Position numbers and translations under genes: made by a program. A stretch of DNA of 20,000 nt from an uncultured virus (IMG/VR IMGVR_UViG_2061766007_000327) (taxonomy: Duplodnaviria > Heunggongvirae > Uroviricota > Caudoviricetes), in the IMG/VR virus record IMGVR_UViG_2061766007_000327. One strand, given 5' to 3'. Shown in pieces: positions 646 to 5,791 of this stretch (the first letter of the stretch is position 1; every line of letters begins with the position of its first letter). The notes beneath the pieces were generated by a model that made no database searches, was not told the origin of the DNA, and worked only from the letters and a program-made list of their open reading frames with translations.

Positions 646-712
646 TGCCGTTCACTTTTTCGTCGCTCGGGAACATTCCCACGACAACCAACATTATTAC
701 TAAGACCCACAT
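638..712 (-). CDS. Possible 24-aa hydrophobic peptide (MWVLVIMLVVVGMFPSDEKVNGNV)
   Basis: Fills the gap between neighbouring genes exactly; N-terminal hydrophobic run. Confidence 0.4.
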   Translation of the reverse strand: MWVLVIMLVVVGMFPSDEKVNGNV

Positions 713-715
713 ATC

Positions 716-1016: not shown

Positions 1017-1020
1017 CGCT

Positions 1021-1182
1021 CTACCCTCCAATCGTGTAAGACACTTCCGCCACAGAATAGATATACTCATCTTGGTGGCTCATAATTCGGGCATAATCTT
1101 CAGCATCGCTCTTGTTATCGCAAGTAAACAAAACTGACGGGTTCAAACTTTTGAACCAACGCAATACAACATACTTTTTCAT
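1021..1182 (-). CDS. Small hypothetical protein, 53 aa (MKKYVVLRWFKSLNPSVLFTCDNKSDAEDYARIM...)
   Basis: Manual translation; AT-rich leader (ttataaaattagttagcg) typical of Bacteroidota translation starts. Confidence 0.7.
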   Translation of the reverse strand: MKKYVVLRWFKSLNPSVLFTCDNKSDAEDYARIMSHQDEYIYSVAEVSYTIGG

Positions 1183-1802
1183 CGCTAACTAATTTTATAA
1201 GGTTATTCGTAGCGAGCGCCCGATTCGATCGGACAGCATCGCGCCTTTCGCTCGCCCATTACTCAGTAGCCAATTTTCTCTGCTTCGTGCCAGATTCTGA
1301 AACACGACATAGTAAACTCATTACTTTCGACTACCTACGGCTGTTCAACTTATATCTATTCGTTCGGTTTGCCATTCCATTGTCGCTCTTCGTCCATTTT
1401 ATCTCTAGGTATGGATACCTGTCAGAACGCTCGTGTCGTGTGTCACTCACTACTGGACATAGTTTCCTCCGAACCTTCTATGTCGTTCCGCTCGTTCCCG
1501 CTGGTTCTATACGCTCCGGTTCCAGCACCGTATTTTATACTCCTTATGAGACCGTCCACAGCAAACTCGTTGCTCGGCTTACATCGTTCGGAGTCCCGTC
1601 TACTAAACCCGTTCGTTCGGGTCGTTCGCTCGGTATTCTCAGTATGTCCTGTCATTCGGCCCGTTCACGTCAATTTGGCGTTTCAAGGTCAAAATTTGAG
1701 GGTACAAAGTGCCCCCATCGGCTACATTCAAAAAGCCGATTGCATGGCAAGCTAAGGGACGCATTCAAGTCCCTTAGCCCGTATTGATATGTAACTATTT
1801 AG
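1183..1802 (-). ncRNA. Candidate large structured non-coding RNA ending in a tRNA-like minihelix
   Basis: 620 nt without a convincing ORF in an otherwise gene-dense operon; many hairpins with G-U pairs favouring the minus strand; terminal 7-bp acceptor plus T-arm. Confidence 0.5.
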
Positions 1803-2237
1803 TTACTTTGTGGTTGTCGGTGTTACAATAGTTTGGCTGAATCGGTTGCCCTGCCTATTACTTTCAATGCAATTGATAGCGCATTTTTTCAGCAACCCGC
1901 GGGCCGTTACACCGGACAACCTTGCAACCTTGAAAACAACCTTCCCGTCTTCGGTTCTTACCTTATTGCAGGGCTTTCCGTCTTCGGTTGCATATCTTGA
2001 AAAATTCTTGATAAGCCATATTTCAGGCTTTTCTCCCTTACTGCCTGCAATCCCTGCAATAACGGAATTCAATGCCTTATAAGCAGTGTTTTCCGCTTTC
2101 AGTCCATCCCATTGTAGTTTCAACTGCTTTTCAAAAGAGTCGAAAAACGCTTTCACGCTTTCCTTTGCTTTTCTGCTTTCGTCATTGCTGAATTCATTTA
2201 TAGTCCTTTCAGCGAAGACATTTTTTACATCTGCCAT
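1803..2237 (-). CDS. Hypothetical protein, 144 aa; first gene of the leftward operon
   Basis: ORF track; A-rich leader (ttaaaaacaaaagttATG). Confidence 0.85.
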   Translation of the reverse strand: MADVKNVFAERTINEFSNDESRKAKESVKAFFDSFEKQLKLQWDGLKAENTAYKALNSVIAGIAGSKGEKPEIWLIKNFSRYATEDGKPCNKVRTEDGKVVFKVARLSGVTARGLLKKCAINCIESNRQGNRFSQTIVTPTTTK

Positions 2238-2373: not shown

Positions 2374-2444
2374 TAAATTTATACCTTTTGACAACTTAAT
2401 TATCGTAAAACGATATGAAAATATATTAAATTTATACCTTTTGA
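2374..2444. repeat. 18-bp perfect direct repeat TAAATTTATACCTTTTGA x2
   Basis: Copies at 2374-2391 and 2427-2444. Confidence 0.9.
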
Positions 2445-2521: not shown

Positions 2522-2707
2522 TGTTTTATGTCTTATCGAAAAACATTAAAAAATTTACGTTTTACGCTGCTTGTAACCAACATCACAAAGGGACTAAATG
2601 CTTGATTGTCAACAACTTAAAACGTTTTAAAGGGTGGCGGGGTATGCCATGTAGGCCGAGGGACAGACCCCAGGTGCGTTCCTGAAATTTTTTTTCGAGT
2701 GTAATTC

Positions 2708-2981: not shown

Positions 2982-3016
2982 CAGCGGACGACCTTCCGAG
3001 AAATCATTCAAATGTT

Positions 3017-3172
3017 ATGGACAAGCGAGAATTGAGATTGGGCGACGAGGTGCTCTGGAATGGGCAGGTCGCAGTGGTCGACACCCTGACGCAGACATGC
3101 GTCGCACTGGTATGCGTGGATAACAATGACTACGTGATCGTGAGCTATGCCGACATTCAGCGGAAGAATTAA
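3017..3172 (+). CDS. Small hypothetical protein, 51 aa (MDKRELRLGDEVLWNG...)
   Basis: Internal ATG of ORF 2918..3172; ELRLGDxV start is typical of small phage beta-barrel proteins. Confidence 0.65.
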   Translation: MDKRELRLGDEVLWNGQVAVVDTLTQTCVALVCVDNNDYVIVSYADIQRKN

Positions 3173-3543
3173 GGAGGAGCGGAAGGCGCTCTTCGGAAAG
3201 TACGAGGTCAGCGACCGCGGGATCGTCTACAGCGACGGGATGCNNNNNNNNNNNNNNNNNNNNNNTCGGGGTCAACCTGCGAGGGAAGCGGGTGAAGATC
3301 TGCGAGCTGGTGGCGAAGGCGTTCTTGGATGGGGGCGGAGAAGGTCGCTGGGTCCGGCATAAGAACGGCGATGTAAAGGATAACCGGGTGGAGAACCTGG
3401 AGTGGTCGGAAAAGAAGGAAGAGAGAAGGGGCCGGAAGAGCGCGGAGAGGATCGTAAGGGNNNNNNNNNNGGTGAGCGAGGAGGGGATTAGGTCTTGCCT
3501 GCGGGGTGTGCAGAAAAGTGCCGGGGGACTCTTGTGGTTTTGA
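3147..3543 (+). CDS. NUMOD4-HNH homing-endonuclease-like protein (interrupted by two N gaps)
   Basis: YEVSDRGIV (NUMOD4-like), ELVAKAFL...VRHKNGDVKDNRVENLEW (HNH), IRSCLRGVQKSAGGLLW (NUMOD1-type HTH tail); the frame change coincides with an N gap. Confidence 0.8.
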
Positions 3544-3554
3544 CGGAAGTTTCG

Positions 3555-3562
3555 TAGCTTTG
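3555..3562 (+). promoter_or_regulatory. Bacteroidota -7 element TAGCTTTG (probably a leaderless transcript)
   Basis: TAnnTTTG 5 nt before the ATG at 3568; CTTG 20 nt upstream. Confidence 0.6.
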
Positions 3563-3567
3563 CGTTC

Positions 3568-3747
3568 ATGGGAAATGCAGAGATCTTAAGAGGAATGAGC
3601 AGGGAGGAGCTGGAAAGGCTCTTCGCGGAGCGGCGGATGCTGCTCCTGGAGGTGCGTGACGAGATTGACCGGCGTGACCGCGAATGGGGAAAGCCGGGTG
3701 TCGATGTGGACTTCACGAAGTATGTAGGTGACGGCATCGAGGGCTAG
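3568..3747 (+). CDS. Small hypothetical protein, 59 aa (MGNAEILRGMSREELERLFAERR...)
   Basis: Manual translation; directly follows the -7 element; helical charged sequence. Confidence 0.7.
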   Translation: MGNAEILRGMSREELERLFAERRMLLLEVRDEIDRRDREWGKPGVDVDFTKYVGDGIEG

Positions 3748-4123: not shown

Positions 4124-4179
4124 GGCGGGGAAGCGGCGGTTTAGGGCCGCGGTCGGAGGTTCGAATCCTTCCCCCGTTT
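4124..4179 (+). ncRNA. D-arm-less tRNA-like element
   Basis: Acceptor GGCGGGG/CCCCGTT, 2-nt linker, GCGGC-ggtttagg-GCCGC stem-loop, GGTC variable region, T-arm GGAGG-TTCGAAT-CCTTC. Confidence 0.7.
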
Positions 4180-4312: not shown

Positions 4313-5791
4313 GTGAGATACGACAACATAGTAGAATATCTGTGCGAGACAGTTGGTCCGGCGATTCAAGGCGCGGGAGCGACTGATGAGAGGGTAAATA
4401 AGCGCACGGAGGCAGGTATGGCGATCGCGTTCCGGCGTTACGTCTGTGGGATAGACGGCGATAGCGGATGCGATTTCTTCAAGGTTGATGACGACGATCA
4501 GCTGTTCCTCTTCAACGGCATGCATTACGAGGTCGTGAAGGAGGAGATCTTGCAGGAGATCATCATCGAGGTGATGGAGGAGATGGAGGTCGGGATCGTC
4601 TATCTGGCGAATTCGGCCAAGGGTATCAAGGATTTGTGCATGAATAAGCTGAAGACGGACGAGAGATGCCGCTTCGTGGCCGACCGGAGGTACGTCTGTT
4701 TCCGTAACGGGGTGTTCGACTGTGAGACCGGGAAGCTCCTGGCTCACGATGTGAGGTATAAGACTGACATCATCTTGGATTTCGACTACCGGGCCGATGC
4801 GGTGAGTGCGTTGTGGGACAAGGTTCTCGCGCAGACCGTGCCGGATATCAGCATGCGGGAGACTTTCCACCAGTTCTGCGGGTGCTTTTTAGCGAAGAGG
4901 GAGCAGTACAAGATCGAGTATATCTGTTTCATAGTGGGCGAGGGTCAGAACGGCAAGAGCATCATCTGCAAAGCGGTTATCAATACGCTGGGCAGGGGTG
5001 TCGCCAGTGCCTACTCGCCGGAGCAGTTGTTTAAGAGCAGCCAGGCGGAGTATCATCTGGCGGATGTGAACGGCAAGATCGTGAATTACTGCGATGATGT
5101 GAGCAAGAAGGACTTCTCCGGGGGCGATTTCAAGCAGTTCGTGAGCGGTGGGGAGTTCACGGGGAGGCATCCTTATAGCAAGAGGCCGACAAAGGTCAAC
5201 AAGATCCCGCTGATGCTGTGCTGCGCCAACAATATCCCGCCGACTACTGATGACACTGAGGGGTATTTCAGGCGCTTTTTGATTATATTGGCCCCGAATC
5301 ATATAGATGAGAGGGACAAGGATGTCACTCTGGAGGCGAAACTGCAGGCGGACGATGTAAAAGCGGCTATTTTCAACTGGATTTATGAGGGGTATAAGGC
5401 TTTTGTGGCGAATGGCGGCAAGATCGACATCGCGTCGACCGTCAAGGATGTGATAGAGGAGATGCGAGCGACCAGCAACTCGCTGCGGAGGTGGATTTCC
5501 GAGTTCAATTATGGGAAAGTCGAGCCGGAGGGGTCGAGCGATCCGAGATGGAAGCCTTTGAAGGCCTGGTGCAAGGAGTATATCGAGTACTGCCAGGATT
5601 TTGGGGAGCAGCCGAAGAACAAGAATGCCGTCACGGAGATGTTCAAGAAGATGGGATTGGCGAAGACGCGCCGGAGTGACGGAATGTGGTACTGCATGGG
5701 TACTGTTGAGGAAAAGAAGGAGCGGAAGAAAGCCGAGAAGGAGGAGGATATGCCTAATTTTGTTGAACCTTTGAATTTTTTGCCGTTCTGA
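4313..5791 (+). CDS. SF3 DNA helicase, D5/P4-alpha family (D5_N plus ATPase; no N-terminal primase domain evident)
   Basis: CFRNGVFD (D5_N), Walker A GEGQNGKS, Walker B-like VNYCDD, motif C CANNIP, FRRFLII arginine finger; GTG start. Confidence 0.9.
   Translation: MRYDNIVEYLCETVGPAIQGAGATDERVNKRTEAGMAIAFRRYVCGIDGDSGCDFFKVDDDDQLFLFNGMHYEVVKEEILQEIIIEVMEEMEVGIVYLANSAKGIKDLCMNKLKTDERCRFVADRRYVCFRNGVFDCETGKLLAHDVRYKTDIILDFDYRADAVSALWDKVLAQTVPDISMRETFHQFCGCFLAKREQYKIEYICFIVGEGQNGKSIICKAVINTLGRGVASAYSPEQLFKSSQAEYHLADVNGKIVNYCDDVSKKDFSGGDFKQFVSGGEFTGRHPYSKRPTKVNKIPLMLCCANNIPPTTDDTEGYFRRFLIILAPNHIDERDKDVTLEAKLQADDVKAAIFNWIYEGYKAFVANGGKIDIASTVKDVIEEMRATSNSLRRWISEFNYGKVEPEGSSDPRWKPLKAWCKEYIEYCQDFGEQPKNKNAVTEMFKKMGLAKTRRSDGMWYCMGTVEEKKERKKAEKEEDMPNFVEPLNFLPF

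What the first reader, a model, noticed from the sequence alone, without database searches (positions are those of the whole stretch)
1183..1802. Candidate ~600-nt ornate non-coding RNA embedded in the phage's leftward small-gene operon
Seen: every other intergenic gap in this operon is 4 nt or less, or an overlap, but here 620 nt carry no convincing ORF. The minus strand is purine-rich and folds into many helices: 1749-1780 (12 bp), 1717-1740 (7 bp), ACCCG/CGGGT near 1607-1622, GCTGG/CCAGC near 1500-1526, GACATAG/CTATGTC (1456-1484), and a multibranch domain closed by 1327-1335/1265-1273 that contains two inner hairpins. It ends in a tRNA-like minihelix. G-U pairs in several helices work only on the minus strand, the operon's sense strand. 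Known: phages carry large structured RNAs of similar size (ROOL, GOLLD). Inference: this is a relative of those or a new large phage RNA class, or a long cis-acting antitermination element. I cannot assign it to a family by eye.
Basis: partly seen in the sequence, partly recalled or inferred. Interest (0 to 1): 0.78.

Follow-up and report, generated by a model that had tools for sequence, protein, structure and literature searches.

The report
Phage non-coding spacer ending in tRNA-like helix
A 620-base gene-free stretch in a rumen phage operon is real non-coding sequence that ends in a small tRNA-like hairpin, sitting exactly where related phages carry self-cutting ribozymes, so it most likely marks a place where the phage's long messenger RNA is cut.

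Summary
The gap 1183-1802 is truly non-coding: all three stop codons occur in all three sense frames, and the one database relative of its longest antisense ORF switches reading frame.

It matches no Rfam family, ROOL and GOLLD included. It is not thermodynamically ornate. Whole-gap z is -1.0 to -1.7, the mean local z is -0.23, and the most conserved core has z +0.27.

The 3' tRNA-like minihelix (1211-1256, minus strand) is real. Across five phages 98% of cells pair, 8 of 12 pairs show compensatory changes, and 0 of 500 shuffles match this. In related phages the same slot before the next gene holds a pistol ribozyme (57 bits) or a twister-P5-like element. I read the minihelix as an RNase P/Z-type cutting site; this is inferred, not shown.

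The roughly 440-nt body is purine-rich and carries YGAACGR motifs on the sense strand only. In close relatives it has diverged 3-9 times less than both flanking genes. A long gap follows the "family A" first gene in all 12 phages examined. Its function is unknown; I favour an RNA binding platform.

The parts
1803..2237 (-). p144, the 'family A' first gene of the leftward operon. It is a basic protein (pI 9.6) of unknown fold and forms a module with the gap behind it.
   Evidence: ORF. In relative X3, 24 of 29 substitutions fall on codon position 3. It has 32 homologs in Logan/ENA. AF2 model pLDDT 88 with no fold match. No Pfam or PHROG family. pI.
1698..1780 (-). Cluster of post-stop hairpins: 1749-1780 (13 bp), 1717-1740 (7 bp) and 1698-1716.
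   Evidence: MFE and centroid folds. This is the only part of the gap with strongly negative local z, -3.4 to -4.3. A hairpin at the same place behind the stop codon in the L012-type phages has 5 of 12 pairs with compensatory change. No U-tract terminator was found by the scan.
1257..1697 (-). The body: purine-rich, weakly structured non-coding sequence carrying 8 GAACG motifs (consensus YGAACGR), all on the sense strand.
   Evidence: Stop codons in all frames. Motif counts. Local z near 0. X3 shows only 4 substitutions plus one 1-nt insertion across 1257-1802 (545 nt; three of the substitutions lie in this body, the fourth and the insertion at 1781-1782), against 29 in the 435 nt of p144.
1477..1638 (-). 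Best-conserved core of the body. It holds 6 of the 8 GAACG motifs plus the ACCCG/CGGGT and GCTGG/CCAGC hairpins.
   Evidence: P0033 matches here at 39 of 53 residues, in the other + frame. A 194-nt contig from an RNA library (X20) covers 1478-1638 with 3 differences and unlike sequence at both ends. Fold z +0.27, with 114 of 200 shuffles as good.
1211..1256 (-). tRNA-like minihelix. Acceptor-like stem 1250-1256 / 1211-1217 (7 bp). Linker 1235-1249, 15 nt and conserved. T-like stem 1230-1234 / 1218-1222 (5 bp). 7-nt loop 1223-1229 (AUCGAAU).
   Evidence: Descriptor scan. Alignment A7 of 5 phages: 98.3% of cells paired, 8 of 12 pairs compensatory, 0 of 500 shuffles as good, and 30-51% paired in the slid controls. 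RNAalifold finds the same helices unaided. By my reading, relatives X7 and X8 replace both acceptor strands and still keep 7 pairs.
1183..1210 (-). Short A/U-rich leader between the minihelix and the next start codon. Position 1210 is the discriminator-like base.
   Evidence: Read from the sequence. In the other phages the minihelix ends 22-59 nt before the next start.
1021..1182 (-). p53, a small gene placed between the minihelix and the conserved 41-aa gene (891-1016). It is absent from close relatives.
   Evidence: Contigs of X3, X7 and X8 join 1016 to 1205 or 1218, with 16-29 other letters between. p53 homologs follow the gap in L086 and occur in L090.

Best explanation
The interval is a transcribed, non-coding segment of the phage's leftward early operon, built from three parts. 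(1) Hairpins lie directly behind the stop codon of the first gene, p144. (2) A roughly 440-nt purine-rich, weakly folded body carries repeated YGAACGR motifs. (3) A 46-nt tRNA-like minihelix sits 28 nt before the next gene.

The minihelix mimics the acceptor/T-arm half of a tRNA. It most likely serves as a cutting site for the host's tRNA-processing enzymes, RNase P on its 5' side and RNase Z on its 3' side. Cutting would separate the 'p144 + body' RNA from the mRNA of the downstream small genes and leave that mRNA with a short unstructured leader. Related phages achieve the same cut at the same place with self-cleaving ribozymes (pistol, twister-P5-like).

The body is inherited together with the family-A first gene. 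It probably works at the RNA level as a multi-site single-stranded binding platform for a protein, possibly the basic family-A protein itself.

SHOWN: the stretch is non-coding; the minihelix structure holds; the slot is shared with ribozymes; the motif is enriched and strand-biased; the body is conserved in close relatives.

INFERRED: transcription as one RNA; cleavage by RNase P/Z; any binding role of the motifs.
For: NON-CODING.. The longest antisense ORF has a single relative among 1.84 billion representatives, and that relative changes frame against the window.

MINIHELIX. Stems of 7 bp and 5 bp abut with no gap, as in a tRNA, and close a 7-nt loop AUCGAAU. Eight of 12 pairs are compensatory across 5 phages, and 0 of 500 shuffles do as well. 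The G-U pairs exist only on the sense strand. The covariance model built from the motif also gives weak hits on other tRNA-like elements and on the T arm of a true tRNA.

SHARED SLOT. The gap before the second gene is a pistol ribozyme in L013 (57 bits, gathering score 34.5). It is a twister-P5-like element in L012 (34.5 bits) and L009 (31.1 bits; gathering score 37.6), and the same core motifs occur in L084. The same type of minihelix sits there in L008, L085, L086 and L090.

MODULE. All 12 family-A phages have a gap of 552-859 nt. All 4 family-B phages have a gap of 85-140 nt.

MOTIF. CGAACG occurs 25 times in 3979 nt of six gaps, against 3 times in 12956 nt of sense-strand coding flanks. 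GAACG occurs 48 times on the sense strand, and its complement once. The motifs are more often unpaired than average, 0.54-0.64 against 0.39-0.46.

CONSTRAINT. The gap diverges 0.5-1.9% against 2.6-6.7% in both flanking genes, in contigs from three studies. In the L012 group the body is as conserved as the gene, 67-77% against 66-78%.

EXPRESSION HINT. A contig from an RNA library covers 1478-1638.
Against: No cleavage, transcript end or strand of expression was observed. The runs laid were contigs, and DNA can sit in an RNA library.

The minihelix lacks an encoded CCA; it has ACGA. Its loop starts with A where tRNAs have T54. ARAGORN and Rfam do not call it a tRNA.

The twister-like hits lie below Rfam's gathering score.

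Links within family A between subgroups rest on weak pairwise BLASTP scores, E from 2e-4 to 0.009.

Motif enrichment is weak or absent in some family-A gaps: L087 has 1 GAACG and L090 has 2.

Low divergence in close relatives could also come from recent recombination of this segment. The L015 gap behind a 70%-identical p144 does not align.

Nothing ties the motifs to the p144 protein. Its fold has no informative match.

A DNA-level role for the motifs is not excluded.
Confidence: 0.5

Rival explanations
1. The whole 600 nt is one large, intricately folded RNA of the ROOL/GOLLD kind.
For: Its size is like ROOL's 581-nt average. ROOL and GOLLD occur in phages, in rumen samples and near tRNAs (PMC5737381, passages read). 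Two possible long-range helices exist: 1298-1309 with 1434-1445, and 1467-1485 with 1575-1593. The sister group of gaps gives a multi-branch consensus with 20 of 74 compensatory pairs. The L007 gap folds with z -4.96.
Against: No Rfam match at E<=10. Whole-gap z is -1.0 to -1.7. Local z averages -0.23. The conserved core has z +0.27. There is no covariation data for this body. The gaps of different subgroups share only short blocks. The consensus of the sister group is weak, -64.75 kcal/mol over 483 columns, and was derived from the same 4 sequences it was tested on.
Confidence: 0.1
2. The gap is a cis-acting control region, antitermination- or attenuation-like, as in lambda N/nut or HK022 put. 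The first gene's protein, or the RNA itself, would let RNA polymerase read from the first gene into the small genes.
For: It lies directly behind the first early gene and before the delayed genes. The first gene encodes a basic protein, and gene and gap are always inherited together. Strong hairpins follow the stop codon. By eye, roughly 9 of the 46 motif copies listed sit in the loop of a short GC-rich hairpin (for example ACCCG-AACGAA-CGGGU), which recalls boxB. The boxB comparison is recalled from memory, not tested.
Against: No hairpin followed by a U-run occurs on the sense strand of the gap. Most motif copies are not in hairpins. At 400-850 nt the gap is far longer than known nut or put sites. 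No protein here has a known antiterminator family.
Confidence: 0.15
3. The body acts as DNA. It would be an array of directly repeated protein-binding sites: replication iterons for the nearby D5-type primase-helicase, or Chi-like sites.
For: A short motif is repeated 8 times in one orientation. The replication genes lie 2.5 kb away. The conserved core has no folding signal. Such sites are typically conserved within a lineage and divergent between lineages.
Against: The region is not AT-rich (GC 0.48-0.49). The AT-rich repeat region at 2240-2860 is a better origin candidate. RNA-only elements (ribozymes, a minihelix that depends on G-U pairs) frame these gaps. Purine loading matches the transcribed strand.
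Confidence: 0.1
4. The minihelix is not an RNase P/Z substrate. It is a new small self-cleaving ribozyme.
For: It occupies the very slot that pistol and twister fill in relatives. About 18 nearly invariant bases (linker RGGYGCGAUGCY, loop AYCGAAU) lie between freely covarying stems. That pattern is typical of small ribozymes.
Against: The stem lengths (7 and 5 bp, abutting) and the loop are those of a tRNA, and the invariant GG can be read as a D-loop mimic. The loop change in L086 (U to C) is not compensated in the linker. No known ribozyme model matches.
Confidence: 0.08
5. The gap is a decayed gene or neutral spacer with no function.
For: No family match, no folding signal, and rapid turnover between subgroups.
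Against: It has diverged less than both flanking genes in three relatives. It is as conserved as the gene in the L012 group. A long gap is kept in 12 of 12 family-A phages. The motif is 20-fold enriched.
Confidence: 0.03

Closest known systems
tRNA-like processing elements cut by RNase P and RNase Z (MALAT1/mascRNA, MEN-beta; bacterial non-tRNA RNase P substrates, including operon mRNAs and phage-induced RNAs)
   Same: An acceptor/T-arm mimic stands at the 3' end of a long non-coding stretch, where a cut would release the upstream RNA. Review PMC4919922, section 5.4 (passages read).
   Different: This one is armless: two stems plus a 15-nt linker. It sits in a phage operon, no cleavage has been shown, and it has no Rfam family.
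Self-cleaving ribozymes in phage and bacterial intergenic regions (pistol, twister; 'RAGATH' contexts)
   Same: The position in the operon is the same in sister phages. Processing of polycistronic transcripts is the role proposed for them (PMC6765202, section 13, passages read).
   Different: The window itself has no ribozyme match. Its element would rely on host enzymes.
ROOL and GOLLD large ornate RNAs
   Same: Size, phage and rumen setting, and closeness to tRNA-like elements (PMC5737381).
   Different: No covariance-model match, no multistem or pseudoknot evidence, and no folding signal in the window.
Multi-site protein-sponge RNAs such as CsrB/RsmZ (recalled, not tested)
   Same: A short motif repeated many times in mostly unpaired RNA.
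   Different: The motif differs (YGAACGR, not GGA), no binding protein is known, and the host phylum is recalled to lack CsrA.
Lambda N/nut and HK022 put antitermination RNAs (recalled)
   Same: The placement behind the first early gene, and some motif copies in small GC hairpins.
   Different: The gap is far longer, has no boxA/boxB match, and shows no terminators.

Membership tests
ROOL / GOLLD (Rfam) | Match to the family covariance model | tested here: not met
   0 matches at gathering score over the whole window. 0 matches at E<=10 inside the gap. That these two families are in Rfam 15 is recalled, not printed by the tool.
ROOL / GOLLD (Rfam) | Many multistem junctions and pseudoknots supported by covariation | tested here: inconclusive
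   No alignable relatives of this body were available as DNA. Folding energy is no better than shuffles.
tRNA | Full cloverleaf with anticodon arm | tested here: not met
   ARAGORN finds 0 genes in the window. No Rfam tRNA match.
tRNA-like minihelix (acceptor/T-arm mimic) | A 7-bp stem abutting a 5-bp stem that closes a 7-nt T-like loop, kept by covariation | tested here: met
   12 pairs, 98.3% of cells paired, 8 pairs compensatory.
tRNA-like minihelix (acceptor/T-arm mimic) | Cleavage by RNase P and/or RNase Z | not testable with these tools
   Needs an enzyme assay or transcript end-mapping.
Pistol / twister self-cleaving ribozymes | Match to the family model in the window | tested here: not met
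   The feature is met in relative L013 (pistol, 57 bits). It is below threshold in L012 and L009 (twister-P5, 34.5 and 31.1 bits against 37.6).
tmRNA | tRNA-like domain plus tag reading frame | tested here: not met
   ARAGORN finds none.
Type III toxin-antitoxin RNA | Tandem array of about 36-nt repeats next to a toxin gene | tested here: not met
   TRF finds only a 10-nt unit repeated 2.6 times in the gap. The repeat finder reports no repeat family.
Iteron-type replication origin | Direct repeats plus an AT-rich unwinding region | tested here: inconclusive
   Short direct motifs are present, but GC is 0.48-0.49. Binding was not testable.
Protein-coding gene (either strand) | Open frame conserved in relatives | tested here: not met
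   The single relative, P0033, matches two different frames.

The most novel reading that the evidence does not exclude
The family-A gene and the YGAACGR-rich body form a previously undescribed phage module. In it a roughly 450-nt RNA is cut out of the early transcript by interchangeable cutters (tRNA-like minihelix, twister or pistol). The released RNA then works together with the basic family-A protein as a ribonucleoprotein during infection. This would also give the orphan pistol and twister ribozymes of phages a concrete job.
Probability: 0.2. Interest if true: 0.8.

Novelty: new variant of a known kind. Interest (0 to 1): 0.6.

Why it matters
The biological role of most genome-encoded pistol and twister ribozymes is still open (PMC6765202, passages read). 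In one phage group, the same operon position holds a pistol, a twister-like element or a tRNA-like minihelix. This argues that all three do one job, cutting the operon RNA at that point, and it makes the idea directly testable with a few transcripts.

The work also adds a well-supported small RNA motif that Rfam 15 does not hold. It flags a recurring long non-coding partner of an unknown basic protein in rumen Bacteroidales phages.

It corrects the tempting reading that any long gene-free phage stretch with drawable helices is a ROOL-like RNA.

Tried and rejected
RECODED GENETIC CODE. Rejected: all three stops occur in all frames.

PUBLIC PHAGE RECORDS. No DNA match. No whole genome is held for the window.

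IMG/VR SCANS. The p144 scans found only one syntenic relative, L015. The p53 scan found nothing. A 17-mer from the minihelix found only L008's contig plus 3 chance matches inside genes.

BACTEROIDALES GENOMES. Among 401 genomes sampled from the order of G003 (whose locus L073 is titled a Bacteroidales MAG), the gap DNA gave one 31-nt match (E 1.6e-4 per genome, probably chance). The family-A profile gave none. This means not found in those searched, not absent.

DGR-TYPE OR OTHER LONG REPEATS between the gap and the rest of the window: none.

attP (3' TRNA FRAGMENT) READING OF THE MINIHELIX. Rejected: a complementary 5' strand co-varies with the 3' strand at a fixed distance. Pfam finds no integrase among the 31 window ORFs scanned.

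TERMINATORS. The scan finds no U-tract terminator in the gap. That tool does not cover Bacteroidota promoters.

p144 FUNCTION. The Atlas gave no usable hit. Foldseek had no match at E<=0.001. VIA-align's best was Z 3.2. Nothing can be said about its fold.

GLOBAL ALIGNMENT OF SIX LONG GAPS. Poor; only short collinear blocks.

z-SCORES FOR THE L011 AND L009 GAPS. Not obtained: the script hit its time limit.

RUN COVERAGE. Parts of the stretch not covered in runs X7, X8 and X20 are not evidence of absence.

Full report
SETTING. The window is phage-like. It carries a D5-type primase-helicase (4313-5791), a DnaA-C HTH protein, an SNF2-type helicase, a VRR-NUC nuclease and a large terminase. Genes lack Shine-Dalgarno sequences (read). 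The D5 protein has 44-47% relatives in Bacteroidales MAGs. Near-identical DNA occurs in bovine and sheep gut runs that I laid. No whole genome is held for the window.

A leftward operon starts at the AT-rich divergent region (2240-2860). It runs through p144 (1803-2237), the gap, p53 (1021-1182), a 41-aa gene (891-1016) and further small genes.

The 166-aa ORF has one relative among 1.84 billion representative proteins: P0033, E 1e-17 (the same single hit). P0033 matches the 1287 frame at its two ends but the 1369 frame in its middle, 39 of 53 residues identical. So the two DNAs differ by frameshifting indels. P0033 is a mistaken gene call on a homologous non-coding stretch.

IS IT A KNOWN RNA, AND IS IT ORNATE? 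Rfam 15 gives nothing at gathering score in the window. It gives nothing inside the gap at E<=10, whether 1701 nt or only 646 nt are searched.
- Whole-gap folding on the sense strand is z -0.97 (5 of 20 shuffles as good) and -1.73 (3 of 40).
- In 100-nt windows the gap's mean sense-strand z is -0.23 (21 windows), against -1.10 in the flanking genes (47 windows).
- Only the hairpins just behind the p144 stop codon stand out, at -3.4 to -4.3.
- The best-conserved core (1470-1645) has z +0.27, and 114 of 200 shuffles fold as well.

RELATIVES. IMG/VR scans with the D5 protein, the 76-aa gene, the 41-aa gene family and the L012/L009 first-gene family brought in 90 loci.

In this phage group the first gene of the leftward operon comes in two families. 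Family A comprises window, L015, L012, L009, L007, L011, L083-L087 and L090. Its subgroups are linked by weak BLASTP scores, E from 2e-4 to 0.009. Family B comprises L008, L013, L006 and L077.
- All 12 family-A phages have an ORF-free gap of 552-859 nt behind the gene. My judgement of which small ORFs are real enters here.
- All 4 family-B phages have 85-140 nt.
- Gaps of different subgroups do not align and share only short collinear blocks.
- All long gaps are 57-62% purine on the sense strand.
- In six of them CGAACG occurs 25 times in 3979 nt, against 3 times in 12956 nt of sense-strand coding flanks. CCGAACG occurs 13 times against 0. GAACG occurs 48 times, and its complement once.
- The consensus is YGAACGR. 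The motifs are predicted to be unpaired more often than average.
- Enrichment is weaker in L083-L086 (4-5 GAACG each) and absent in L087 and L090.
- In the window, 4 of the 5 exact CGAACGA sites of the whole 20 kb lie in the gap, all on the minus strand.

THE 3' ELEMENT. A descriptor scan picked out 1211-1256 on the minus strand. It found like elements in L008 and L006 and, on the + strand, one in the window at 4124-4178 upstream of D5 and one in L007.

Alignment A7 covers five phages: window, L008, L085, L086 and L090. It shows a 7-bp stem, a conserved 14-15-nt linker (RGGYGCGAUGCY), a 5-bp stem and a 7-nt loop (AYCGAAU). The 3' strands of the two stems abut, as in a tRNA.
- 98.3% of cells pair.
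- 8 of 12 pairs have changes on both sides.
- 0 of 500 column shuffles reach this.
- Sliding the partner by 1-3 columns gives 30-51% pairing.
RNAalifold finds both helices unaided and adds a 3-bp hairpin in the linker. G-U pairs make the helix strand-specific.

The close relatives laid add more. X3 keeps both stems but has 9- and 11-nt insertions in the linker. X7 and X8 replace both acceptor strands. By my reading of tables 3, 4 and 5c they become CGAGAUG/CAUCUUG, again 7 pairs.

A model built from A7 finds only the five training sequences strongly. It gives weak hits on other tRNA-like elements and on a true tRNA's T arm. ARAGORN sees no tRNA or tmRNA here.

THE SLOT. The element stands 22-59 nt before the next start codon in all cases.
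- In L013 the whole 89-nt gap at this position is a pistol ribozyme (57 bits, gathering score 34.5).
- In L012 and L009 a twister-P5-like element lies there, at 34.5 and 31.1 bits against a gathering score of 37.6. Its core motifs recur in L084 around a 110-nt insertion.
- L011 has a minihelix with a canonical UUCGACU loop and a GCCA end.
- L009 and L006 share another minihelix type.
Three unrelated RNA-cutting devices at one syntenic point argue that cutting the operon RNA here is the selected function. For the minihelix this means host RNase P and RNase Z. That step is inferred from established knowledge of minimal tRNA-like substrates (review PMC4919922, passages read).

The proposal that bacterial and phage ribozymes process polycistronic RNAs is in print but unproven (PMC6765202, section 13, passages read).

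I did not examine that DNA.

THE BODY. Contigs from three studies carry close relatives.
- X3: 29 substitutions in the 435 nt of p144, 24 of them at codon position 3. Only 4 substitutions plus one 1-nt insertion in 1257-1802, and 3 in 900-1016 (117 nt).
- X7: 35 in 558 nt over p144 and its 5' flank, and 7 in 117 on the left. At most 4 in 1258-1575 and 3 in 159 nt (1605-1763).
- X8: 22 in 420, 5 in 117, at most 4 in 1258-1465, and 1 in 215.
So the gap is 3-9 times less diverged than both neighbours. This means either purifying selection at nearly every base or a recently shared segment. The unalignable L015 gap warns that the second is possible.

In the L012 group, body and gene are equally conserved, 67-77% against 66-78%. 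RNAalifold gives 74 pairs, 20 of them with compensatory changes, including a post-stop hairpin and two long-range helices. That structure was derived from the same four sequences, so the control figures flatter it.

An RNA-library contig (X20, 194 nt) covers 1478-1638 with 3 differences and unlike sequence at both ends. This is a hint of expression and of mosaic exchange, not proof.

The same 160 nt are the part best kept in P0033 and hold 6 of the 8 GAACG motifs. Conserved, motif-rich and unfolded, the core fits a single-stranded binding platform better than a catalytic fold.

All first-gene proteins are basic, pI 8.75-9.93. p144 gives a confident model (pLDDT 88) without an informative fold match.

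WHAT REMAINS OPEN. Four things were not observed: whether the RNA is cut, by what, whether the body acts in cis or in trans, and what reads the motifs. Supplements of the cited papers were not consulted.

VERDICT. The stretch is ordinary in being non-coding phage RNA with processing signals. It is unusual in its conserved armless tRNA mimic, in that mimic's interchangeability with ribozymes, and in the recurrent gene-plus-gap module.

Noticed in passing
window 4124-4178 (+): A second tRNA-like element sits just upstream of the D5 primase gene. It has a 7-bp acceptor-like stem, a 24-nt insert with its own hairpin, and a canonical T arm (GGAGG-TTCGAAT-CCTTC). ARAGORN and Rfam do not call it a tRNA. 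In L006, L013 and L004, predicted tRNAs (Rfam tRNA matches in L006 and L013; ARAGORN only in L004) stand at the same place.
   Followed up: partly
window 1017-1204: p53 (1021-1182) is a presence/absence polymorphism. Contigs of three close relatives skip it and join the minihelix almost directly to the 41-aa gene. Homologs of p53 follow the minihelix in L086 and occur in L090.
   Followed up: partly
window 646-715 (-): A second, 70-nt intergenic gap in the operon. It has a GGGAAUGUUCCC hairpin and a UGAACGG motif just before the next start codon. Local sense-strand z is -3.15 for 651-750.
   Followed up: no
window 2374-2391 and 2427-2444 (+); 2477-2523: Two perfect 18-nt direct repeats, TAAATTTATACCTTTTGA, contain a TAnnTTTG-like box (the Bacteroidota -7 consensus, recalled). 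Next to them lie overlapping palindromes and 3.3 copies of CATGACAAAATGT. Part of this block is shared with L007 and L013. It is probably the divergent promoter/operator or origin region.
   Followed up: no
window 2630-2694 (+): A block 80% identical to L008 2775-2839 that ends in a hairpin followed by a run of U on the + strand. It may be a small rightward RNA or a terminator.
   Followed up: no
window 1976-2175 (-), inside p144: Strong local folding inside the coding gene (z -3.2 to -4.0). There is also a weak RAGATH-8 match at 2055-2189 (22 bits, gathering score 86.7), far below threshold.
   Followed up: no
L008 1328-1370 (-); L077 about 1510-1560 (+): In family-B phages a further tRNA-like T-arm element lies upstream of the first gene, in the operon's leader.
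   Followed up: no
L013 3077-3149 (-); L012 1853-1941 (-); L009 3127-3188 (-); L084 3418-3578 (+): A pistol ribozyme above Rfam's gathering score, and a conserved twister-P5-like element just below it, in sister phages. The L084 copy carries a 110-nt insertion in one stem.
   Followed up: partly
window about 3100-3500: The window holds short runs of N, seen as X in translations of 3015-3737. These are masked or unresolved bases in the rightward early genes.
   Followed up: no
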